A stretch of 64,000 nucleotides of DNA, from the NCBI GenBank assembly GCA_964398815.1, contig CAYNNZ010000004.1, forward strand, positions 8,074 to 72,073. The letters run 5' to 3'. Made by a program: the position numbers and the translations under genes. Below, piece by piece: positions 42,509 through 50,362 of this stretch (within the stretch, counting starts at the first letter, position 1; the number at the start of each line of letters is the position of its first letter). The notes under the pieces are model-generated. The model saw nothing but the letters and a program-made list of their open reading frames with translations. It ran no database searches and was not told the origin of the DNA. Origin of the DNA: an uncultured Candidatus Saccharibacteria bacterium (GTDB lineage: Bacteria; Patescibacteriota; Minisyncoccia; Phycocordibacterales; Phycocordibacteraceae).

Positions 42509-45346
42509 TTAGACCACAAGATTGAGGATTCGGCCGGGCACGTAAATGACACGTGAAGGCCTCACTTTACCAAGTGAAGTCTTCACACTGGCAATCTGGA
42601 TGGCCATATCCACTGCATCTGCCTCGGATGCATCCGGAGCGATGGTTATTTCCCCACGTTTCTTGCCGTTTACCTGCACGGTAAGCACCACCTCATCTGC
42701 GACGAGAAGCGACTCATCCGCTGTCGGCCATGCCGCAGCGTGGACACTTCCCTCTTCTCCCAGAGTGCCCCAGAGATGCTCTGTGAGATGCGGAGCAAAC
42801 GGTGCGAGCAAAACCAGAAGGGTACGAACTGCCTGTCGCGGTACCGCTGGCAGTGCTTCGAGGTCGCGCACGAGCACCATGAGCGCAGAGAGGGCGGTAT
42901 TGAATTTAAAGCGGTCGATTTCGCCAGTTACTTTACTCGTCGCCAGTGCGAGTGCGCGTAGTGTTGCTTCGTTCGGCTCGCTGTCGTCTGCCTTACTGGC
43001 GAGTGCATACACGCGATCGAGGAATTTGCGCATCGACAGCGTTCCGTCCAGATTCCATGGGTAGTGACCTGGCTCGTTATATGGACCGATGAATGCGAGG
43101 TACATGCGCACCGCGTCAGCGCCGAATTTCGCCACTACTTCGTCCGGGTTCACGACATTCCCCTTCGACTTACTCATCTTCGCGCCGTCCGTGCCGAGCA
43201 CGATGCCGCGATTGAATCGTTCGGAGAATGGTTCCGACACCGGTGAGAGTGCGAGGTCGTAGAGCACCTTCGTAAAGAACCGTGCATACAGGAGATGCAT
43301 CGTTGTGTGCTCGCTGCCGCCTGAGTAGCGGTCTATCGGCATCCACTTCTTCATGAGCGCAGCGTCGGAGAAATCATGCTCATCCTTCGGGTCGAGATAG
43401 CGGAAGAAATACCAGGATGAGTCTACGAAGGTATCGAGCGTGTCGTATTCCGGTGTCCAGCCTTCGCCGAATATGCGCGTAACGCGCTCCTGGAGTTCTT
43501 TAGAAGACGCGAGCGGGGACTTTCCTTCGCCTGCAGCACCCGGCGTCATGTCGACATCTTCCGGAAGCAACCACGGGAGATGCTCAGATGGGATAGGGTG
43601 CGGATTACCTTCTGGGTCATAGACGACCGGTATCGGACAGCCCCAGTATCGCTGTCGACCAACTGACCAATCGCGTATACGGAACTGCTTCACCCGCTCG
43701 CCTCCGGCGGCCTCAGCGATATCCCAGATGGCTTCGCGGTTTGGCTTTCCGGTAAAGTCTCCGGAATTCGTGAGCAGACCATCGCCAGTGTAATGACCCT
43801 TTCCGAGGAATCGGGCGAGTGCGTACTGATGCTGGTCATCATGTATCTCCTTCACCGCAACCTCCGGCGTTACCCACTCCACGGTGAATTTACCCTTCTC
43901 ATCTTCTTCGAGCTCCTGCTCGCTCTGTGTATCGGATGCGAGCTTGAAATGCAGAATGGTCGTATGCGCGAGCGTTGCTTGATTCTTCGAGAATGCAAAA
44001 TAGGAATGATGGACCTTTTCGTCCGCACGTTCGATGAGCTCTAATTCCTTGTAGCCGGTCTCTTCGCCTATTTCTCGGCTCGCGGTAATTGCTGGGTCTT
44101 CACCCTCATTTACTGTCCCGCCCACGAGCAGGCGCCCACCGAGCTCTTTCGGCCAGTTGATGGTGAGCACTTTACCGTTGTGCTCGACAACGGCGACGAT
44201 TTTCTCCTTATGTTTCGGGTCGACTTGCTCTTCACCGGTAATCGGGTCGATGACGTAGCGAATTGGTAGGTTGTACTTCTTCGCGAACTCATAATCGCGC
44301 TCGTCGTGCGCAGGCACCGCCATAACAGCGCCTGTACCGTATGAGGCAAGTACGTAATCAGCGACATAGACCGGAATGGATTCCTTGGTCGCAGGGTTTG
44401 TTGCAGTGAGGCCATCGAGCACCACACCAGTCTTCTCTTTGTTCTCACTGCGCTCGCGCTCGGTCTTCTTCCCGGTCGCCTTCTGATATGCGCGAACCGC
44501 ATCGACATTGGTCGCGTGCGCAAGAAGCGATTCGAGTGCCGGGTGCTCCGGAGCGAGTACGAGGTAGGTGGCGCCATAGAGGGTGTCAGGACGGGTAGTG
44601 AACACCTGGATATCCGTAGTCTCCGATCCAGTCGCAACCGGGAATGTAATTTTCGCGCCGTCTGACTGCCCTATCCACGCGCGCTGCGCTTCTTTTATCT
44701 CATTCGGCCAGGCGAGCCCGTCGAGGTCAGCAAGGAGACGCTCCGCGTACGCGGTGATTTTGAGGAACCACTGCGTGAGCATCTTGTCTTCGACTTCATG
44801 TCCGCAGCGTTCGCATTTTCCATCCACTACCTGCTCGTTGGCGAGCACCGTCTTATCATTCGGGCACCACTTCACCGATGCGAGCCTGCGCTCTGCGAGT
44901 CCGTGCTCGAGGAACTTCGTGAAGAGCCACTGCGTCCACTTGTAGTAGGAAGGGTCGCAGGTGATGACTTCCTTCGACCAATCCATGGATGCGCCCATCG
45001 TCTCCAGCTGGCGACGCATGTTCGCCATGTTGTCGTAGGTCCATTTCTTCGGGTCGAGACCACGCTTTATCGCCGCATTCTCAGCCGGCAGCCCGAACGC
45101 GTCGAATCCCATCGGGAAGAGTACGTTCTTCCCTGCCATGCGCAGTTTGCGGGCGTAGATGTCCGTAAGTGCGAACGCATACCAGTGCCCGATATGCAGA
45201 TCTCCTGATGGATACGGAAATTCAAAGAGGAGGTAGTACTTCTCTTTGGTCTCATCCGTGAGGTCGGTCTCGTACAGATTGAGGCCTGCCCACTTTTGGC
45301 GGGCTGCCTGTTCTATCTCTACGTGATTGAACGACTCTCGCGCCAT
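42509..45346 (-). CDS. leuS: leucyl-tRNA synthetase with an inserted Nudix hydrolase domain
   Basis: 945 aa. PSGDLHIGHWY (HIGH), TTRPDTLYGATY and GTGAVMAVPAHDERD (CP1 editing), KMSKSKGN. Residues about 378-515 carry a perfect Nudix box GTVNEGEDPAITASREIGEETGY. Confidence 0.96.
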   Translation of the reverse strand: MARESFNHVEIEQAARQKWAGLNLYETDLTDETKEKYYLLFEFPYPSGDLHIGHWYAFALTDIYARKLRMAGKNVLFPMGFDAFGLPAENAAIKRGLDPKKWTYDNMANMRRQLETMGASMDWSKEVITCDPSYYKWTQWLFTKFLEHGLAERRLASVKWCPNDKTVLANEQVVDGKCERCGHEVEDKMLTQWFLKITAYAERLLADLDGLAWPNEIKEAQRAWIGQSDGAKITFPVATGSETTDIQVFTTRPDTLYGATYLVLAPEHPALESLLAHATNVDAVRAYQKATGKKTERERSENKEKTGVVLDGLTATNPATKESIPVYVADYVLASYGTGAVMAVPAHDERDYEFAKKYNLPIRYVIDPITGEEQVDPKHKEKIVAVVEHNGKVLTINWPKELGGRLLVGGTVNEGEDPAITASREIGEETGYKELELIERADEKVHHSYFAFSKNQATLAHTTILHFKLASDTQSEQELEEDEKGKFTVEWVTPEVAVKEIHDDQHQYALARFLGKGHYTGDGLLTNSGDFTGKPNREAIWDIAEAAGGERVKQFRIRDWSVGRQRYWGCPIPVVYDPEGNPHPIPSEHLPWLLPEDVDMTPGAAGEGKSPLASSKELQERVTRIFGEGWTPEYDTLDTFVDSSWYFFRYLDPKDEHDFSDAALMKKWMPIDRYSGGSEHTTMHLLYARFFTKVLYDLALSPVSEPFSERFNRGIVLGTDGAKMSKSKGNVVNPDEVVAKFGADAVRMYLAFIGPYNEPGHYPWNLDGTLSMRKFLDRVYALASKADDSEPNEATLRALALATSKVTGEIDRFKFNTALSALMVLVRDLEALPAVPRQAVRTLLVLLAPFAPHLTEHLWGTLGEEGSVHAAAWPTADESLLVADEVVLTVQVNGKKRGEITIAPDASEADAVDMAIQIASVKTSLGKVRPSRVIYVPGRILNLVV

Positions 45347-45352
45347 GACTCT

Positions 45353-46348
45353 CTAGAGCGGCTTTGCGGCTGGAATGGGCGGGAATTTATCCGGGTCGAT
45401 AGTACGTGTGAAGCACGCAGTTCCTGCTTCGTGCTGCCAGTTGTCATCCATTCCGCCAAAGCTTGGAGAGGTTGGGTAGGCGATGTCGCGTCCCATACCT
45501 ACAGAACCACGTCCCTTCATGTCAGCTGCAGCCGTCTTGAAGTCGGCGCAGAGCTTGAACGTAAGCGGAGCAGTGCGTTCATACGTGTAGTTTGCACCTG
45601 TCTGCGGGTCGACCGGCACAATGAAATTCGAGAGCGGGTCATTGAGCAAATCAAGCGACTCAGGAAGCTTCTGCTTCTGCTGATAGTAGTACGTCAGCTG
45701 GTACTGAATGCTGGTGAGATCTGACACACGCTGGCTATCGAGGCGCAGGTCGCGCACATGGCCCGGAGTTCCAATGATGAAGAATCCAGCGACCACAGTT
45801 GCGAGTGCGGCAATACCGACAATGATGCCGACGAGATTTCCCTTCTTTGCGTTGCGTACCCAGTAGCCCTTCAGGTCAAGATAGAAGTAACCGAAGGTAA
45901 GGAGTGCGACTACGAGCACGGCGAGGACCTTCAGACCAAAGCGAATGGTTATCTCACCGCCAAGGAATGTATTGATAAGCGTAGCGAGGTCGATGAGCGC
46001 AGCGACGACTGCAATGAAGAGCGTGAGCACGAGCGCCCAGCGACGCACCCAGATGTTTGCCTTACCAGACTCTGCGATTATCGAGCCGCGAATGAGACGG
46101 AAAAGCACGAGCATCGTAGGGACGAGCACTATGAGTGCTGCCATAGAGGTGCGCACGGCGCCACCATATGGGTCTCCATATCCAGCGAGCGCATCCGGGA
46201 AAAGATAGTTAATGTACTCAAACTTAAGCGCGAGAACGGAAGTAACAGAGCCGTAGAGCGCGATGATGGCACCAAGCCAGAGGAAGAAATCGCGCGGGGT
46301 TGTTTTTGAGGAATTGCTTGCAGGAGCTGGAGCGGGTGTGTTTTCCAT
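45353..46348 (-). CDS. multi-pass membrane protein with C-terminal extracytoplasmic domain (DUF5671-like by recollection)
   Basis: About 331 aa from MENTPAP. Five to six TM segments, then a region resembling pilin/pseudopilin-associated domains (SDLTSIQYQLTYYYQQKQKLPESL). Confidence 0.6.
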   Translation of the reverse strand: MENTPAPAPASNSSKTTPRDFFLWLGAIIALYGSVTSVLALKFEYINYLFPDALAGYGDPYGGAVRTSMAALIVLVPTMLVLFRLIRGSIIAESGKANIWVRRWALVLTLFIAVVAALIDLATLINTFLGGEITIRFGLKVLAVLVVALLTFGYFYLDLKGYWVRNAKKGNLVGIIVGIAALATVVAGFFIIGTPGHVRDLRLDSQRVSDLTSIQYQLTYYYQQKQKLPESLDLLNDPLSNFIVPVDPQTGANYTYERTAPLTFKLCADFKTAAADMKGRGSVGMGRDIAYPTSPSFGGMDDNWQHEAGTACFTRTIDPDKFPPIPAAKPL

Positions 46349-46388
46349 AGTGCGCGGATTATACCACAAAAAAGTTTCGCCCGCCGTC

Positions 46389-47078
46389 TCATGAAGAGTC
46401 GGCGGGCGTCTCGCGTGCGGCGAATAGTTCAGCTATGAGATCACTGACCAGTGGATAAAGTTCCTGGTCAAAGAGCGAAATGGGCGCACTTTTATCCTTA
46501 CCAAAGACCGATGTTTGGAGTTCATTGTACTCGGCCTCACTGAACGCAATGCCGAGGTAGCGGTTCCATTCGCAGCCGATATACATGCTCCAGTCGATGG
46601 CCCTGTCGTCTGTCAGACTGTACGTATTCCACGCATGGAGCATAGGGTTGGCCAGGTAACCGCAGACCATACCCTCCACGTAGCACAGACGGTTAGTGTC
46701 CTTATGCCGTCTTGCACCTTTATTGACGTTTCGCATCCACACCTGCGAATTGCCGAAGCATTCGCCGGCGAGAGGCTGACGGGGGAAGGTTCGGAATTTT
46801 GGTGATAATTCTGGAGTGGAGCGGTAATGGCGTCCTTGTTTCAGCAAGAGTTCAAGAGCATCCGGATGAAAGACGCACTTTCCAGGCATCGATGGTTGCA
46901 GCGCGAAGCCACTCCTCATGTGGGCGAGTTCAACGAGGGCGATATGCCCGATGAGACTATCGTGGCCGTCCGGAAAGTTCTGACTGAACCACTCATCAGC
47001 CTTGAACTTAAATTCTGGGTCCTCGTAGACGTAGTTCCATGCCTCCTCGTAGGAGGTGAAGGGTTCTTGGTCGGACAT
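46389..47078 (-). CDS. hypothetical protein with transglutaminase/papain-like Cys-His-Asp arrangement
   Basis: 229 aa from MSDQEPF. GECFGNSQVW ... YVEGMVCGY...MLHAWNTY...DRAIDWS parallels the transglutaminase-core order C...H...D. Confidence 0.45.
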   Translation of the reverse strand: MSDQEPFTSYEEAWNYVYEDPEFKFKADEWFSQNFPDGHDSLIGHIALVELAHMRSGFALQPSMPGKCVFHPDALELLLKQGRHYRSTPELSPKFRTFPRQPLAGECFGNSQVWMRNVNKGARRHKDTNRLCYVEGMVCGYLANPMLHAWNTYSLTDDRAIDWSMYIGCEWNRYLGIAFSEAEYNELQTSVFGKDKSAPISLFDQELYPLVSDLIAELFAARETPADSS

Positions 47079-47165
47079 GTTCACCTCCTTGGCTGTCCGC
47101 CTGCAATAGAACACGAACGGGATGGAAAGTAAATCGACGCCAGGGTAACCGTATATACTTTAGGA

Positions 47166-47369
47166 ATGGAACCCACTGAACAGAAACTCGCTGCCCTTGA
47201 GCAGAAGATTGATGCAATTTATGTATCGGTAGAGAAAACGCGGAAGTATTTCCTCTGGACGATGGTTGTAACTATCGTCCTGTTTGTCCTTCCGCTGATC
47301 GGACTCGTATTCGCCATTCCGGCCTTCATGACCAATTACCTCGGTCAAATAAACAGCCTGGGTCTGTAG
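47166..47369 (+). CDS. small membrane protein (67 aa)
   Basis: N-terminal helix followed by two hydrophobic segments. Confidence 0.5.
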   Translation: MEPTEQKLAALEQKIDAIYVSVEKTRKYFLWTMVVTIVLFVLPLIGLVFAIPAFMTNYLGQINSLGL

Positions 47370-47382
47370 TTCGGTTTTTGGA

Positions 47383-48480
47383 CTAGCTGTGCAGAAACAC
47401 CATCACGTCACCGTCTTTGACCTCGTAGGTCTTCCCTTCGGTGCGTATATCCCCCTTATCGCGCGCAGCGCTCCATGAGCCGTCAGCAAGCAGCTTGTCC
47501 CACGCGACCACCTCGGCGCGAATAAACTTGTCGCGGAAGTCCTCATGGATAGCAGCACCCGCGTCAGGCGCGAGCGCGCCCTGCTTCACGGTCCACGCGC
47601 GACTTTCCTTCGGTCCGGTCGTGAAGAACGTGAGGAGACCGAGCGTCTCGTATGCGCCGCGGATGAGGTCTTTAATACCGTCATCCTGTACTCCGAGCTC
47701 TGAGCGGAACATATCCTTGTCGCTGTCTGCGACATCATTCAGTTCATGCTCGGTGCGTGCGTCTATAAGAACGTAGCTTCCGCCGAGGGACTTCACATAG
47801 TCATATGCCTTTTGCGCGCGGCCATCATTCATTTCCGCGAGGTTGTGTCCACCGGACTTACCATTGAATGCGTAGAGGATCGGCTTCAACGTGAGGAGAT
47901 TGAGGGATTTTATGAGCTTCGCTTCCTCAGATGTTAGTCCCGCCGTTATGGCGAGCTTTCCGGACTCCAGTTCAGTAGCAACCTTAACCAAAGCTGCTTT
48001 CTCCTCCAGTGCTTCCTTCTTGTTCATTGCGACGTCGCGCACGAGTTTCTCGAGGCGGCGATCCACACTATCCTTGTCCGCAAGAATCAGTTCGAGATTA
48101 ATCACCTCGATATCCTGCATCGGGTCAATTTCGCCATGCACGTGCGTAATATCCGGATCCTCAAAGAAACGGACCATGTGGAGGATTGCGTCCGTCTCAC
48201 GGATGTTCGAGAGGAATTGGTTACCGAGGCCTTCGCCCTCGCTTGCTCCCTTCACCAAGCCTGCAATATCGACGAATTCAATGACTGCAGGAACGGTCTT
48301 CTCGGATTTCGAAAGCTCCGCGAGCTTATCCAGGCGATCGTCCGGCACCGTAACGACACCCACGGAGGGGTCTATGGTTGCGAATGGATAGTTCGCCACG
48401 AGTGCGTTCGCTCGTGTGAGCGCATTGAAAAGGGTCGACTTCCCGACATTGGGAAGTCCTACGATTCCTATCTTAAGCAT
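47383..48480 (-). CDS. ychF: ribosome-binding ATPase YchF
   Basis: 365 aa from MLKIGIVGLPNVGKSTLFNALT (ATG 48480); the track ORF extends spuriously to 48642. TGS-like C-terminus. Confidence 0.95.
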   Translation of the reverse strand: MLKIGIVGLPNVGKSTLFNALTRANALVANYPFATIDPSVGVVTVPDDRLDKLAELSKSEKTVPAVIEFVDIAGLVKGASEGEGLGNQFLSNIRETDAILHMVRFFEDPDITHVHGEIDPMQDIEVINLELILADKDSVDRRLEKLVRDVAMNKKEALEEKAALVKVATELESGKLAITAGLTSEEAKLIKSLNLLTLKPILYAFNGKSGGHNLAEMNDGRAQKAYDYVKSLGGSYVLIDARTEHELNDVADSDKDMFRSELGVQDDGIKDLIRGAYETLGLLTFFTTGPKESRAWTVKQGALAPDAGAAIHEDFRDKFIRAEVVAWDKLLADGSWSAARDKGDIRTEGKTYEVKDGDVMVFLHS

Positions 48481-48506
48481 TATCCCTACCTTACGGTGTT
48501 CGTCAG

Positions 48507-48735
48507 AAAAGGAAAAGGGCCGGCGCTTGCGCGTCCGGCCCAATCCAACCCTTCGTCTGGGAGAGCATAGGGTTGAGTGGCTCGGTGCTGTAGTGCGCAT
48601 GTCTCCGAGGTGCCTAGGCCTCGATGGGCACCACAGCGACAAGCCAGAGGCATCCTATACCAGCATCCTTCATGGGTCTACCTATTCAGTACCTAAACCG
48701 CACCAACTAGGTGCTTACTCACTAACGCTACACAT
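48507..48735 (-). ncRNA. candidate structured RNA (independent sRNA or ychF leader) ending in an intrinsic terminator
   Basis: Minus-sense rod-like fold. GGCTTG/CGAGCC plus GCTGTGGTG/CACTACAGC (two G-U pairs that are valid only on minus) enclose CGAGG-CCTAGGCA-CCTCG. Outer ATAGG/CCTAT. 5' hairpin GCACC-TAGTT-GGTGC. Terminator GGGCCGGaCGC-GCAA-GCGCCGGCCC plus TTTTCCTTTTC lies at 48507-48541. No Rfam-class motif recognised. Confidence 0.4.
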
Positions 48736-48874
48736 ATGACGACAGAAGAAATGAAGAAGAAGGAGGCTGATGAGGCAAAGAAGAAAGAGGAGGAAGTGGC
48801 GAAGAATTCTTCAGATAAGAAGTAAGCTCGCTCGGGCAAGCTCGCACAGAAAAGCCGCCTATGGCGGCCTTTGT

Positions 48875-48991
48875 GTATATAAAAAGAAAAGGCCCTACGT
48901 GAGGGCCTTGGGGGGTTGGGAGGTGGGATGGGGTGGTCGTGGGGTGACCGCGCCGTTGTCGGGGGGGCGTCAGCTGGCGCTCCCACCTCCC
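48875..48991 (-). ncRNA. candidate small RNA with C-rich loops
   Basis: Promoter-like TTGCAT-N17-TATAAC (49026-48998). The transcript would start at the 12-nt arm TGGGAGGTGGGA, which pairs with TCCCACCTCCCA 52 nt downstream. Inner GCGCC/GGCGC stem. C-runs in the loops. Terminator AAGGCCCT-CACGT-AGGGCCTT plus TTTCTTTTTATAT. Confidence 0.4.
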
Positions 48992-48997
48992 AGAATG

Positions 48998-49026
48998 GTT
49001 ATAACATCTCCTTGCTGATTATGCAA
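48998..49026 (-). promoter_or_regulatory. putative promoter of the C-rich sRNA candidate
   Basis: Minus-sense TTGCAT (49026-49021), 17-nt spacer, TATAAC (49003-48998). Confidence 0.35.
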
Positions 49027-49051
49027 GTATGTTTCCGGACCGAGGCGTATA

Positions 49052-49080
49052 TTGACTTTTCCCGCATTTTATGCTATTAA
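49052..49080 (+). promoter_or_regulatory. putative promoter of the 49110 gene
   Basis: TTGACT-N17-TATTAA, then GGGAG 8 nt before ATG 49110. Confidence 0.4.
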
Positions 49081-49109
49081 ATACCCAACGTCATTCTGGG
49101 AGATAGACA

Positions 49110-49508
49110 ATGACTAAGAACATTCCGTTCAAATTCACCGTTGCGTTCACCTTCCTCTTGGGCTTCGGCTTGCTTGCCTTCGCCTGCTTCCTGCAGTGGG
49201 ACATCACGGACTACCCGAATAGGGTCTATATGTCCGAGATGATCGCCCGCGGCTGGTCCGCCACTGCCGGCGCCCTGCCGGCCTCGACGACTGCCCGCTT
49301 CCCCATGCTCGGCGACGGGTATCTGGGCGTCTGCGCCCCGATCGTCTTCGCCATCATGGGCTTCGCCATGCTGGTGCTCGGCTGGCATCTCCTCGATGCC
49401 GTCCATAAGGACGACGAGGAAGAGCCGGAAGAGCCGGCGCGTGAGCCCGTGGCGACGGACGACAACGTCCGCCACATGGGTGAAGGCGCCCGCGACATCG
49501 CGGCCTAG
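49110..49508 (+). CDS. hypothetical membrane protein (132 aa)
   Basis: Two to three hydrophobic segments and an acidic C-terminal tail. Own promoter, SD and terminator. Confidence 0.5.
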   Translation: MTKNIPFKFTVAFTFLLGFGLLAFACFLQWDITDYPNRVYMSEMIARGWSATAGALPASTTARFPMLGDGYLGVCAPIVFAIMGFAMLVLGWHLLDAVHKDDEEEPEEPAREPVATDDNVRHMGEGARDIAA

Positions 49509-49532
49509 CAACACCAACAGCGCATCATGCGC

Positions 49533-49570
49533 GAGCCCCTGCCATCACGGCGGGGGCTCTTAGTTTTATA
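49533..49570 (+). terminator. intrinsic terminator
   Basis: GAGCCCCTGCC-ATCAC-GGCGGGGGCTC followed by TTAGTTTTATAT. Confidence 0.6.
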
Positions 49571-49609
49571 TAAAAAGGAAAAGGGGTCGACGCCAAAGAC
49601 GTCGACCCC
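49568..49609 (-). terminator. intrinsic terminator of the 49688 gene
   Basis: GGGGTCGACG-7 nt-CGTCGACCCC, followed on the minus strand by TTTTCCTTTTTATA. Confidence 0.6.
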
Positions 49610-49687
49610 CGCTCCGAGGCCATAGAGGCTGGGAAGTGCCAGCCCCGGAGTTCGTCAGCTGGGAGGCTGAACAAGCACAGAATTGCA

Positions 49688-50269
49688 CTACTTAGCTGCG
49701 CGCGCAAGCGACGCAATGGCCTTCAGATAGCGTGCTTTGCGTGCTGGGGTGCAACTCTCTGAATTTCCAAACTGCGTAAGGCTCACCTTATAGCCAGACA
49801 TACCAAGAGTGGCGTAGGAGATTTCGTTCGTGAAGTCACCGAATACGAGACGTATGAAAATTGGCGGCATCTTGGAAAGCGTAATGACTCGCGCCGTCTT
49901 CCCCGTCATCATGCGGTCCCATCCCATACCGTTCTTCCAGAAATGGAACGCAAAGCTGGGAAGCCAGATACGGTCAAAGAATCCCTTGAGTAGCGCAGGC
50001 ATTGCCGACCACCAGACTGGATACAGGAGCACGAAGTGGTCCGCCCACTTCATATCCTCCTGCACTTTCTTCAGGTCCGGCTCGAGTTCTTGAATTACCT
50101 TGTAGCCCTTGTGGAGAATGGGGTCGAACGAAAGGTCCCCGATATTCGCACGTCGCACGTAGTGGCCAGCATCGGCGGCCGCCTTTTCGTATGCATCGGC
50201 AAGTTCGTTCGTAAGTGTACCGTCCTTATCGGGATTACCCATCAGGATATAGATGTTCTTCTGCTTCAT
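49688..50269 (-). CDS. flavodoxin-like fold NAD(P)H dehydrogenase (quinone)-type protein
   Basis: 193 aa. IYILMGNPDKD, ADHFVLLYPVWWSAMPALLKGFFDR. Confidence 0.8.
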   Translation of the reverse strand: MKQKNIYILMGNPDKDGTLTNELADAYEKAAADAGHYVRRANIGDLSFDPILHKGYKVIQELEPDLKKVQEDMKWADHFVLLYPVWWSAMPALLKGFFDRIWLPSFAFHFWKNGMGWDRMMTGKTARVITLSKMPPIFIRLVFGDFTNEISYATLGMSGYKVSLTQFGNSESCTPARKARYLKAIASLARAAK

Positions 50270-50326
50270 GCCGTAACTTTATCATGCGACCACCCCCATC
50301 TCCGTGTCGACTTTAGGGCGACTGGA

Positions 50327-50362
50327 AAAGTTAATAGTGCGATATATCGCACTATTAACTTT
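50327..50362. repeat. 36-nt perfect palindrome
   Basis: AAAGTTAATAGTGCGATATATCGCACTATTAACTTT equals its own reverse complement. Same core and GTTAA/TTAAC flanks as 35714-35753. Confidence 0.95.

What the first reader, a model, noticed from the sequence alone, without database searches (positions are those of the whole stretch)
48875..49026. Self-contained small-RNA gene candidate with C-rich loops (promoter, 12-bp stem, intrinsic terminator)
All elements lie on the minus strand, in an intergenic gap with no credible ORF:
- A promoter-like TTGCAT-N17-TATAAC lies at 49026-48998.
- About 7 nt downstream the sequence TGGGAGGTGGGA (48992-48981) begins. It is perfectly complementary to TCCCACCTCCCA (48928-48917), 52 nt further on.
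- The enclosed segment has an inner GCGCC/GGCGC stem and unpaired C-runs (CCCCCCC, CACCCCACGACCACCCCA).
- A further C-run is followed by the hairpin AAGGCCCT-CACGT-AGGGCCTT and TTTCTTTTTATAT.

This layout predicts a transcript of about 117 nt. Unpaired C-rich motifs are what known trans-acting sRNAs use to mask G-rich Shine-Dalgarno sequences.

On the opposite strand the same tract is a textbook G-quadruplex motif (G6-TT-G3-AGGT-G3-AT-G4, 48910-48933).
Basis: partly seen in the sequence, partly recalled or inferred. Interest (0 to 1): 0.6.

Follow-up and report, generated by a model that had tools for sequence, protein, structure and literature searches.

The report
Small structured RNA gene near ychF
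The flagged stretch is very probably a real gene for a small RNA of about 110 nt; it belongs to a previously undescribed RNA family that sits just upstream of the conserved ATPase gene ychF in a group of tiny-genome (CPR/Paceibacteria) bacteria, but what the RNA does is still inferred rather than shown.

Summary
The 12-bp stem and the terminator are solid. The promoter is weak by consensus (3/6 and 5/6, no T at position 6 of the -10).

The window comes from a Patescibacteria/Paceibacterota genome. No Rfam family matches. Contigs of the same species are 100% identical here, so they say nothing.

Sister species, however, carry a unit of the same build between the flavodoxin-like gene and ychF:
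- a TTGnnn-N16/17-TAnnnT promoter ending 6 nt before a long hairpin;
- a C-rich linker;
- an intrinsic terminator.

I built a covariance model from seven of these, leaving the window out. In the 64-kb window it picks out exactly 48992..48881(-): 26 bits, E about 1e-5, next hit 10 bits. Held-out relatives score 23-33 bits. In 11 sequences the closing stem is 96% paired, and 8 of 10 pairs show compensatory changes.

The closest relative (L229 module 1) keeps the unpaired UGACGC7-8GAC and ACCCCC segments, while 7 of 12 stem pairs have changed on both sides.

A free-standing structured RNA gene is therefore supported. Masking of Shine-Dalgarno sequences in trans is plausible but untested. A role as a ychF leader or attenuator is the main rival.

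The parts
49021..49026 (-). -35-like hexamer TTGCAT
   Evidence: Sequence. Matches the consensus at 3 of 6 positions. Eight of the 11 family members carry a TTGnnn at the same distance (TTGCAA, TTGCGA, TTGCCA, TTGCTT, TTGATT).
48998..49003 (-). -10-like hexamer TATAAC, 17 nt after the -35 and 5 nt before the stem
   Evidence: Sequence. Not flagged by the promoter scan because it has no T at position 6. Ten relatives have a -10-like hexamer ending exactly 6 nt before the first stem base.
48881..48992 (-). Predicted RNA, about 112 nt, from the base of the closing stem to the end of the T tract
   Evidence: Model R1, built without the window, matches exactly 48992..48881 over the full model: 26 bits, E about 1e-5. 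MFE -52 kcal/mol, z = -6.7.
48981..48992 (-). Closing stem, 5' arm UGGGAGGUGGGA (contains a Shine-Dalgarno-like GGAGGUG)
   Evidence: The GAGG core is nearly invariant in the family; the pairs covary.
48950..48980 (-). Inner stem GCGCC/GGCGC enclosing a mostly unpaired AGCUGACGCCCCCCCGACAAC (C7 run at 48967-48961)
   Evidence: Fold. UGACGC7-8GAC is shared with L229 1345-1363. Among 231 loci, GACGCCCCCCC occurs only in same-species contigs and in L229.
48935..48949 (-). Small hairpin GGUC-ACCCCAC-GACC with a C-rich loop
   Evidence: Fold. L229 module 1 has an equivalent hairpin, CCAGGG-UCCCUC-CCCUGG.
48929..48934 (-). Unpaired ACCCCA
   Evidence: Fold.
48917..48928 (-). Closing stem, 3' arm UCCCACCUCCCA (contains CACCUCC)
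48910..48916 (-). Single-stranded C-rich linker ACCCCCC between the closing stem and the terminator
   Evidence: Fold. Most family members have an AC + C-rich linker at this place: ACACCC, GCACCC(CC), ACACCCCC.
48881..48909 (-). Intrinsic terminator AAGGCCCU-CACGU-AGGGCCUU plus UUCUUUUU
   Evidence: Terminator scan. Near-identical terminators in L229 module 2 (AAGGCCGU-CACA-CGGCCUU, with a compensated C-G to G-C change) and in L230.
48850..48872 (-). Second hairpin AAAGGCCGCC-AUA-GGCGGCUUUU, a back-up (and bidirectional) terminator 8 nt after the first T tract
   Evidence: Sequence. The scan flags this stem on the plus strand. On the minus strand it is followed by UUUUCUGU.

Best explanation
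The element is a gene for a structured small RNA of about 110 nt.

Inferred from position and from conservation in relatives:
- Transcription starts 5-7 nt downstream of a sigma-70-type promoter, at the base of a 12-bp closing stem.
- It ends at an intrinsic terminator, which is backed up by a second one.

Shown by the covariance model and by covariation:
- It is a member of an RNA family that is not in Rfam. The family lies between a flavodoxin-like gene and ychF in Paceibacteria (Patescibacteria).
- The family is defined by a closing stem with a GAGG/CCUC core, a variable interior with small hairpins, a single-stranded AC + C-rich linker, and a terminator.

In this genome the copy corresponds to the upstream member of a tandem pair, like module 1 of L229. 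It is cut off from ychF by two terminators, about 370 nt, and a second RNA unit (B) with its own promoter-like site. It is therefore most likely released as a free RNA rather than acting as the ychF leader.

Inferred, not tested: the RNA works by base pairing. Its stems drift with compensation, while three unpaired C-rich segments are kept: the UGACGC7GAC loop, the ACCCCAC/ACCCCA segments, and the ACCCCCC linker. Of its 38 unpaired core bases, 25 are C and 1 is G. These segments would pair with G-rich sequences such as Shine-Dalgarno regions and block translation initiation, as C-rich sRNAs of Firmicutes do.

My sub-confidences:
- homologous member of a conserved structured-RNA family: about 0.8;
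- made as a discrete transcript: about 0.65;
- acts through its C-runs by pairing with G-rich targets: about 0.3-0.35.
For: Structure:
- MFE z = -6.7.
- It is the only long-loop perfect 12-bp inverted repeat in the window.
- Terminator flagged by the scan.

Family membership:
- Model R1 was built from 7 sister-species RNAs, without the window.
- It hits 48992..48881(-) over the full model at 26 bits, E about 1e-5. The next window hits score 10 bits.
- Held-out relatives score similarly: L229 1333-1435 33 bits, L231 28 bits, L001 23 bits.
- Negative control: 392 kb of metagenome loci, each carrying an exact GGAGGTGGGA...TCCCACCTCC hairpin (the 10-nt core of the arms), reach at most 15 bits.

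Covariation in 11 sequences:
- Closing stem 96.4% paired; 8 of 10 pairs changed on both sides.
- 0 of 500 shuffles reach the observed values.
- Slid controls give 41-53% paired.

Promoter: a -10-like hexamer ends 6 nt before the stem in all 10 relatives, and TTGnnn lies 16-17 nt upstream in most.

Conserved single strands:
- UGACGC7-8GAC and the ACCCCC linker are shared with L229 module 1, while 7 of 12 closing-stem pairs differ on both sides.
- Across these RNAs the unpaired bases are 181 C against 48 G.

Autonomy: no co-oriented gene lies upstream. There are two tandem terminators, and unit B has its own promoter-like site before ychF.

Precedent for the mechanism: unpaired C-rich motifs of RsaE bind Shine-Dalgarno regions and block formation of the initiation complex (PMC2790875).
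Against: - There are no expression data of any kind.
- The promoter is weak by consensus.
- About 20 contigs of the same species are 100% identical over 48410-49105, but so are the flanking genes, so this says nothing about selection.
- Part of the 26-bit score comes from the linker, terminator and T tract, which are generic features.
- The covariation counts were made on an alignment fitted to the model.
- Only one close A-type relative (L229 module 1) is available.
- In 10 of 11 family copies the RNA is tightly linked to ychF (23-28 nt for the proximal copies), which argues for a cis role for the family.
- Target scans in the window found no outstanding site, and ychF's own start region ranks low.
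- The most anti-Shine-Dalgarno-like sequence (CACCUCC) is locked inside the 12-bp stem.
Confidence: 0.45

Rival explanations
1. Cis-acting leader/attenuator of ychF. In this reading the family is the 5' leader of the ychF mRNA, and its strong terminator is read through conditionally, for example when a protein (perhaps YchF itself) binds the conserved GAGG/CCUC stem and the CACCC linker. The window copy would be the first part of a long composite leader (A, then B, then ychF), or an upstream tandem attenuator.
For: - In the sister species the T tract ends only 23-28 nt before the ychF ATG. That leaves room for the Shine-Dalgarno sequence but not for a separate promoter. I found no consistent -10 element there in L107, L230, L229, L231 or L106.
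- The RNA-ychF linkage holds even in distant members (L028 and L033, whose YchF is 56-57% identical).
- The most conserved part is the closing stem, not a loop.
Against: - For this copy, two consecutive terminators, about 370 nt and a second promoter-like site (TAGACC-N17-TAGGAT) lie between it and ychF.
- By eye I found no recurring antiterminator alternative in the members I inspected. This was not a systematic computation.
- In L028 and L033, ychF has no Shine-Dalgarno sequence, and a TACACT -10-like hexamer lies about 10 nt before the ATG. That suggests an own, nearly leaderless promoter and therefore an independent upstream RNA.
- In L229 the downstream module has its own TACAAT right after module 1's terminator.
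Confidence: 0.25
2. Protein-binding or decoy RNA. The conserved GAGG/CCUC-cored stem and the CACCC linker would be the binding site for a protein, and the C-runs would be incidental. Candidates are a ribosome-associated factor such as YchF, which has nucleic-acid-binding domains (my own knowledge, not tested), or an RNase.
For: Sequence conservation is concentrated in the paired closing stem and the adjacent linker. The family is strictly associated with ychF.
Against: No protein partner can be tested here. The window copy departs from the consensus stem sequence (UGGGAGGUGG against GUCGAGGCGG) while keeping the C-rich single strands it shares with L229 module 1.
Confidence: 0.1
3. Non-functional by-product. 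The element would be a decaying duplicate of the flavodoxin-gene 3' region and terminator, left behind when the 132-aa gene cassette was inserted. In that case it is effectively just an orphan terminator cluster.
For: - Sister species have flavodoxin, RNA and ychF contiguous, with no 132-aa gene.
- The 3' end and 3' region of the flavodoxin-like gene (49720-49560, minus strand) share collinear blocks with the element: cTTGC...CAGC.AAG.AG, ATTCTG, the 10-mer CCAGCTGACG, and the tail CCTTTTC(C)TTTTTATATA.
- With the tail included, the local alignment gives z = 4.5-6.
Against: - A decaying copy would not keep a perfect 12-bp closing stem, a perfect 5-bp inner stem and a perfect 8-bp terminator.
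- Its stem differs from that of L229 module 1 only by compensated changes.
- The family model scores it like other members.
- Without the terminator tail, the similarity to the flavodoxin 3' region is not significant.
Confidence: 0.1
4. DNA-level element. The G-rich plus strand forms a G-quadruplex (or the C-rich strand an i-motif) that affects replication or transcription, and the RNA fold is secondary.
For: A canonical G4 pattern lies at 48903-48944(+). It is the only such cluster on that strand in the window.
Against: - The family is defined by covarying base pairs, a strand-specific promoter and a strand-specific T tract.
- Most family members are much less C-rich, so G4 potential is not a family feature.
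Confidence: 0.03

Closest known systems
RsaE/RoxS and other C-rich sRNAs of Firmicutes (Rfam RF01820; PMC2790875)
   Same: - About 100 nt long.
- A 5' hairpin and a stable 3' intrinsic terminator.
- Several unpaired C-rich motifs that are the most conserved single-stranded parts.
- In RsaE these motifs bind Shine-Dalgarno regions and block the initiation complex.
   Different: - No detectable homology: nothing from RF01820 even at E <= 10.
- Different phylum (Patescibacteria).
- The C-runs are longer (C6-C8 rather than UCCC).
- The family is fixed next to ychF, often directly upstream of it.
- No target or expression evidence.
Transcription-attenuation leaders with an intrinsic terminator, such as ribosomal-protein leaders like rplJL (PMC4538822) and premature-terminator leaders (PMC2965389)
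   Same: In sister species the order is promoter, structured RNA, strong terminator, then about 25 nt with the Shine-Dalgarno sequence, then the gene (ychF). This is the classic leader layout.
   Different: - I found no conserved antiterminator alternative.
- The interior sequence is not conserved, so there is no ligand-pocket-like core.
- This particular copy is about 400 nt from ychF, behind two terminators and another promoter-like site.
Tandem or multicopy sibling sRNAs, such as LhrC of Listeria (PMC4132741)
   Same: - Two related promoter-hairpin-terminator units lie in tandem in one intergenic region: L229 modules 1 and 2, and two hairpin-plus-terminator units in L106, of which only the downstream one matches the family model. 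In the window, A is followed by B.
- They have C-rich single strands.
   Different: The window's second unit (B) is not recognisably homologous to A: 5.5 bits with filters off. Nothing is known about regulation or targets.

Membership tests
ychF-upstream hairpin-terminator RNA of Paceibacteria (family defined here; models R1/R2; not in Rfam) | Significant full-length match to a covariance model built without the candidate | tested here: met
   R1 scores 26 bits, E about 1e-5, model positions 1-118, at 48992..48881(-). The next window hit scores 10.4 bits. Held-out members score 23-33 bits. The control with hairpins carrying the exact 10-nt core of the arms reaches at most 15.2 bits.
ychF-upstream hairpin-terminator RNA of Paceibacteria | Closing stem of at least 10 bp with a GAGG/CCUC core, supported by covariation | tested here: met
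   The candidate has 12 perfect pairs including GAGG/CCUC. In the family, 96.4% of cells are paired and 8 of 10 pairs show double changes.
ychF-upstream hairpin-terminator RNA of Paceibacteria | Promoter-like -10 ending about 6 nt before the stem, with TTGnnn 16-17 nt upstream | tested here: met
   The candidate has TTGCAT-N17-TATAAC followed by 5 nt. The 10 relatives are listed. The -10 of the candidate lacks the T at position 6.
ychF-upstream hairpin-terminator RNA of Paceibacteria | Single-stranded AC + C-rich linker followed by an intrinsic terminator | tested here: met
   The candidate has ACCCCCC followed by AAGGCCCU/AGGGCCUU and a T tract.
ychF-upstream hairpin-terminator RNA of Paceibacteria | Location between the flavodoxin-like gene and ychF, on the ychF strand | tested here: met
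   Flavodoxin-like gene at 49688-50269(-) and ychF at 47383-48480(-). The 132-aa gene is an insertion specific to this lineage.
ychF-upstream hairpin-terminator RNA of Paceibacteria | T tract 23-28 nt from the ychF start codon (holds for the ychF-proximal copies) | tested here: not met
   The candidate is about 400 nt upstream. It resembles the distal copy L229 module 1, which lies 173 nt upstream.
RsaE/RoxS (Rfam RF01820) | Match to the Rfam covariance model | tested here: not met
   No RF01820 hit at the gathering threshold or at E <= 10.
RsaE/RoxS (Rfam RF01820) | Unpaired C-rich motifs, a 5' hairpin and a 3' terminator | tested here: met
   for the candidate. The definition comes from PMC2790875. 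This is a resemblance in design only.
RsaE/RoxS (Rfam RF01820) | Binding of the C-rich motif to Shine-Dalgarno regions of target mRNAs | not testable with these tools
   Energy scans gave no outstanding target. Toeprinting or reporter assays are needed.
Transcription attenuator / 5' leader | Lies in the 5' untranslated leader directly upstream of the regulated gene | tested here: not met
   Two terminators, about 370 nt and unit B with its own promoter-like site lie in between. The feature is met by the sister-species copies.
Transcription attenuator / 5' leader | Mutually exclusive antiterminator and terminator structures | tested here: inconclusive
   Inspection of the folds showed no recurring alternative pairing. 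This was not examined systematically.
Composite of terminators of flanking genes | A co-oriented gene ends just upstream of each terminator | tested here: not met
   The upstream neighbour (49110-49508) is on the opposite strand and diverges from the element.
G-quadruplex-forming DNA | Four or more G3+ runs with short loops | tested here: met
   48903-48944(+). Actual formation and function cannot be tested here.

The most novel reading that the evidence does not exclude
This is the first recognisable riboregulator family of CPR/Patescibacteria, and it is tied to the universally conserved ribosome-associated ATPase YchF. One possibility is a C-run 'anti-Shine-Dalgarno' sRNA system in a lineage with very small genomes. 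Another is an autoregulatory leader whose GAGG/CCUC stem is read by YchF or by the ribosome. In either case, tandem copies such as this one would have become free trans-acting RNAs.
Probability: 0.3. Interest if true: 0.65.

Novelty: new member of a known kind. Interest (0 to 1): 0.5.

Why it matters
I found no described regulatory RNA of candidate-phyla-radiation bacteria in the searches made here. These organisms are uncultured, have genomes of about 1 Mb, and Rfam 15 has no family for this element. The literature searches found none either.

A covarying RNA with a fixed position next to ychF gives two things:
- a concrete, model-searchable family for annotating these genomes;
- a handle on how ychF, a universally conserved gene, might be controlled there.

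If the C-run single strands do pair with Shine-Dalgarno regions, that would extend the strategy beyond Firmicutes, where it is documented, to a deeply separated phylum.

Tried and rejected
1. **Rfam.** I searched the whole window at gathering scores, the 500-nt region at E <= 10, and eight sister loci at E <= 1. Nothing relevant was found.

2. **Variation within the species.** About 20 contigs carrying the identical YchF or the 132-aa protein are 100% identical across 48410-49105. Variation comes in blocks (49106-50300 is variable; 44900-48200 is also invariant). This gives no signal of selection and no covariation.

3. **Direct sequence search.** BLAST and nhmmer of the element against 80 ychF loci from GTDB species genomes gave no significant hit.

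4. **Metagenome scan.** The pattern GGAGGTGGGA-N35-65-TCCCACCTCC hit more than 120 unrelated hairpins and no homologue. These loci served later as a negative control.

5. **MAFFT/RNAalifold on divergent members.** Arms and terminators were misaligned. The structure had to be set by hand, and the final alignment came from the covariance model.

6. **Duplicate of the flavodoxin 3' region.** Collinear blocks exist, but without the terminator tail the similarity is not significant, and my first global-alignment test was uninformative. I kept this only as a weak rival.

7. **Other units in the window.** Unit B and the flavodoxin 3' region are not members by the model: 5.5 and 11 bits with filters off, the latter covering the terminator only. 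A second model that includes the candidate found no further members in 433 kb.

8. **Target prediction.** I used duplex energies against crude start-site calls, neighbouring genes and all 40-nt windows. No site stands out. A 13-14-bp complementarity that I noticed by eye to a G-rich stretch in the flavodoxin 5' region (50304-50287) is not exceptional and is absent from the sister species.

9. **Small-ORF reading.** The GUG-started 97-aa ORF through the element is not conserved and has no support.

Full report
**Observation**

- TTGCAT (49026-49021), 17 nt, TATAAC (49003-48998), then 5 nt;
- a 12-nt arm UGGGAGGUGGGA (48992-48981) that is perfectly complementary to UCCCACCUCCCA (48928-48917);
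- an inner GCGCC/GGCGC stem around a C7 run;
- a small hairpin GGUC-ACCCCAC-GACC;
- a single-stranded ACCCCCC;
- an 8-bp terminator hairpin (48909-48889) followed by UUCUUUUU.

Tests against chance:
- The RNA folds to -52 kcal/mol, against -31.5 +/- 3.1 for shuffles (z = -6.7).
- The terminator passes the scan.
- The 12-mer is found only at the two arms.
- Among the nine perfect inverted repeats of at least 12 nt in the window, this is the only one that encloses a long (52-nt) interior.
- The G4 pattern on the opposite strand is real and is the only such cluster on that strand in the window.

The one weak point is the promoter. It matches at 3/6 and 5/6, has no T at the last -10 position, and was not picked up by the scan.

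**Context**

The flanking genes are:
- ychF, 47383-48480, minus strand (Pfam YchF-GTPase_C and MMR_HSR1);
- a divergent 132-aa membrane ORF, 49110-49508, plus strand;
- a flavodoxin-like gene, 49688-50269, minus strand.

The closest genomes are Parcubacteria/Paceibacterota MAGs; the best has YchF 84% identical. No co-oriented gene ends upstream of the element, so it is not the terminator of a neighbouring gene.

Downstream on the same strand come, in order:
- a second terminator hairpin (48872-48850);
- a CU-rich stretch;
- a second promoter-hairpin-terminator unit, B (about 48680-48507);
- 26 nt containing a Shine-Dalgarno sequence;
- the ychF start codon.

**Known families**

Rfam 15 gives nothing, neither for the window at gathering scores, nor for the region at E <= 10, nor for eight sister loci at E <= 1.

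**Relatives: what did not help**

About 20 contigs of the same species from different samples are 100% identical over the whole intergenic region. Large flanking coding blocks are identical too, and variation is confined to a block at 49106-50300. This is therefore uninformative. A direct sequence search against 80 ychF loci found nothing. A metagenome scan for the two arms returned more than 120 unrelated hairpins.

**Relatives: what did help**

I fetched the ychF neighbourhoods of sister species whose YchF is 84-88% identical, plus two distant ones at 56-57%. In these, the flavodoxin-like gene, an RNA-like unit and ychF are contiguous, and the 132-aa gene is absent.

Each unit has the same build as the finding:
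- a -10-like hexamer (TACAAT, TACGGT, TACATT, TATAGT, GAATAT, CATAAT, TACTTT, TACAGT, or TTTAGT twice) ending 6 nt before the first base of a long hairpin;
- usually a TTGnnn 16-17 nt upstream; where the unit directly follows the flavodoxin-like gene (L105, L107, L229 module 1, L230), this lies inside that gene's last codons;
- a closing stem GUYGRGG.../...CCYCRAC;
- a linker starting with AC and rich in C;
- a strong terminator;
- then only 23-28 nt to the ychF ATG.

Two species carry two hairpin-plus-terminator units in tandem (L229 and L106). In L106 only the downstream unit matches the family model.

**Membership test**

I built covariance model R1 from seven of these RNAs, leaving out the window and three further relatives.
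- In the 64-kb window its only significant hit is 48992..48881(-), over the full model: 26 bits, E about 1e-5. The next hits score 10 bits.
- The held-out relatives score 33, 28 and 23 bits.
- The 392 kb of metagenome loci that carry the exact 10-nt core of both arms never exceed 15 bits, so the hit is not just 'a G/C-rich hairpin'.
- In the 11-sequence alignment the closing stem is 96% paired, and 8 of 10 pairs changed on both sides. No shuffle out of 500 reaches the observed values, and slid controls fall to 41-53%.

Caveats: the alignment was fitted to the model, E-values from the shortened calibration are rough, and part of the score comes from the generic terminator.

**Closest relative**

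The closest relative is L229 module 1, the upstream unit of a tandem pair in a species whose YchF is 88% identical.
- Its closing stem, GCCGAGGGGCUG/CAGCCCCUCGGC, differs from the window's at 7 of 12 pairs, all compensated.
- The unpaired UGACGC8GAC (C7 in the window) and the ACCCCC linker are kept.
- A small hairpin with a C-rich loop occupies the same place.
- Among 231 loci, GACGCCCCCCC occurs only in same-species contigs and in L229.

Drifting stems with conserved single strands are what one expects if the single strands are the working part. Across these RNAs the unpaired positions hold 181 C against 48 G. In the window copy the figures are 25 C against 1 G, out of 38.

**How it most likely works**

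Shown:
- It is a homologue of a covarying structured-RNA family.
- It has a terminator.
- No gene lies upstream on its strand.

Inferred from conserved position:
- A promoter with a start at the base of the stem, giving an RNA of about 110 nt.

Inferred from layout:
- This copy is free-standing, because two terminators and another promoter-like site separate it from ychF. It corresponds to the distal tandem copy seen in L229.

Inferred by analogy only:
- The conserved C-runs pair with G-rich sequences such as Shine-Dalgarno regions, as shown for the unpaired C-rich motifs of RsaE (PMC2790875).
- My target scans gave no outstanding site.

**Rivals**

- The main rival is that the family is a ychF leader/attenuator. 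In most sister species there is no room for, and no sign of, a separate ychF promoter between the T tract and the ATG. In L028 and L033, however, ychF appears to have its own -10 and no Shine-Dalgarno sequence, and I saw no recurring antiterminator.
- A protein-binding role for the conserved GAGG/CCUC stem is possible.
- A relic of a duplication of the flavodoxin 3' region is suggested by collinear blocks. It is hard to reconcile with perfect stems and with the model score.
- A purely DNA-level G4 role does not fit the strand-specific, covarying family.

**Novelty**

The kind is known: a small RNA or leader with its own promoter and terminator, with C-rich single strands. The family is not. 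It is absent from Rfam 15, and I found nothing about it in the literature searches. I rate it a new member of a known kind, of moderate interest, mainly because I found no described regulatory RNAs of CPR bacteria and because of the fixed link to ychF.

Noticed in passing
window 48507-48680 (minus strand): A second promoter-hairpin-terminator unit, 'B', lies directly upstream of ychF. It has TAGACC-N17-TAGGAT, a 69-nt hairpin, a second hairpin, and a terminator with a T tract, followed by 26 nt containing the Shine-Dalgarno sequence AAGGTAGGG before the ATG at 48480. Fold z = -3.2. It is not in Rfam and is not recognised by the family model (5.5 bits). Its start (GAUGCC...) resembles the first unit upstream of ychF in L003 and L001.
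   Followed up: partly
window 49560-49720 (minus strand): The 3' end and 3' region of the flavodoxin-like gene form a strongly folded stretch (z = -6.2) with its own terminator. They share collinear blocks with the finding: cTTGC..CAGC.AAG.AG, ATTCTG, the 10-mer CCAGCTGACG, and the tail CCTTTTC(C)TTTTTATATA. This hints that a segment was duplicated when the 132-aa gene was inserted.
   Followed up: partly
window 49106-50300: The 132-aa membrane ORF (49110-49508, plus strand) exists only in this species cluster (4 protein clusters, 79-98% identical) and is absent from sister species. It sits at the start of a block that varies between strains. The adjacent 48410-49105 and 44900-48200 are invariant in up to about 20 contigs. 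The boundary falls at 49106, 4 nt before the gene's start codon.
   Followed up: partly
window 48987-48997 and 49092-49102: An exact 11-nt inverted repeat, CATTCTGGGAG. As a result, the first bases of the predicted RNA and the 5' UTR/Shine-Dalgarno region of the divergent 132-aa gene are identical. The two copies flank the shared 94-nt promoter region symmetrically.
   Followed up: partly
window 50327-50362: A 36-nt stretch forming a perfect hairpin, with arms of at least 16 nt, lies between the 77-aa ORF and the flavodoxin-like gene. Several public assemblies of this species break at 50356.
   Followed up: no
window 48740-48829 (plus strand): Gene callers annotate a 29-aa Lys/Glu-rich ORF (MTTEEMKKKEADEAKKKEEEVAKNSSDKK) in several contigs. 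It has no Shine-Dalgarno sequence. Its antisense strand is a CU-rich tract lying between the two RNA units. It is probably not a real gene.
   Followed up: no
L157, L174, L164, L173, L145, L180, L148 (metagenome loci): A recurring type of long hairpin in soil metagenomes. The 5' arm has periodic GGGAGGT/GGGATGT repeats, the centre is GATCAGATCTGATC-like, and the 3' arm is C-rich. It is unrelated to the finding (at most 15 bits with R1) but looks like a family of its own.
   Followed up: no
L003 3455-4000: A 545-nt gene-free, strongly structured region lies between the flavodoxin-like gene and ychF in a more distant Paceibacterota MAG. It starts with a good TTGACA-N17-TAGGAT promoter and ends with a hairpin plus terminator. 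It may be a larger RNA of the same locus.
   Followed up: no
L028 and L033, about 10 nt upstream of the ychF ATG: In these distant relatives ychF has no Shine-Dalgarno sequence, and a TACACT -10-like hexamer lies about 10 nt before the ATG. That suggests a nearly leaderless ychF mRNA whose promoter overlaps the T tract of the upstream RNA.
   Followed up: no
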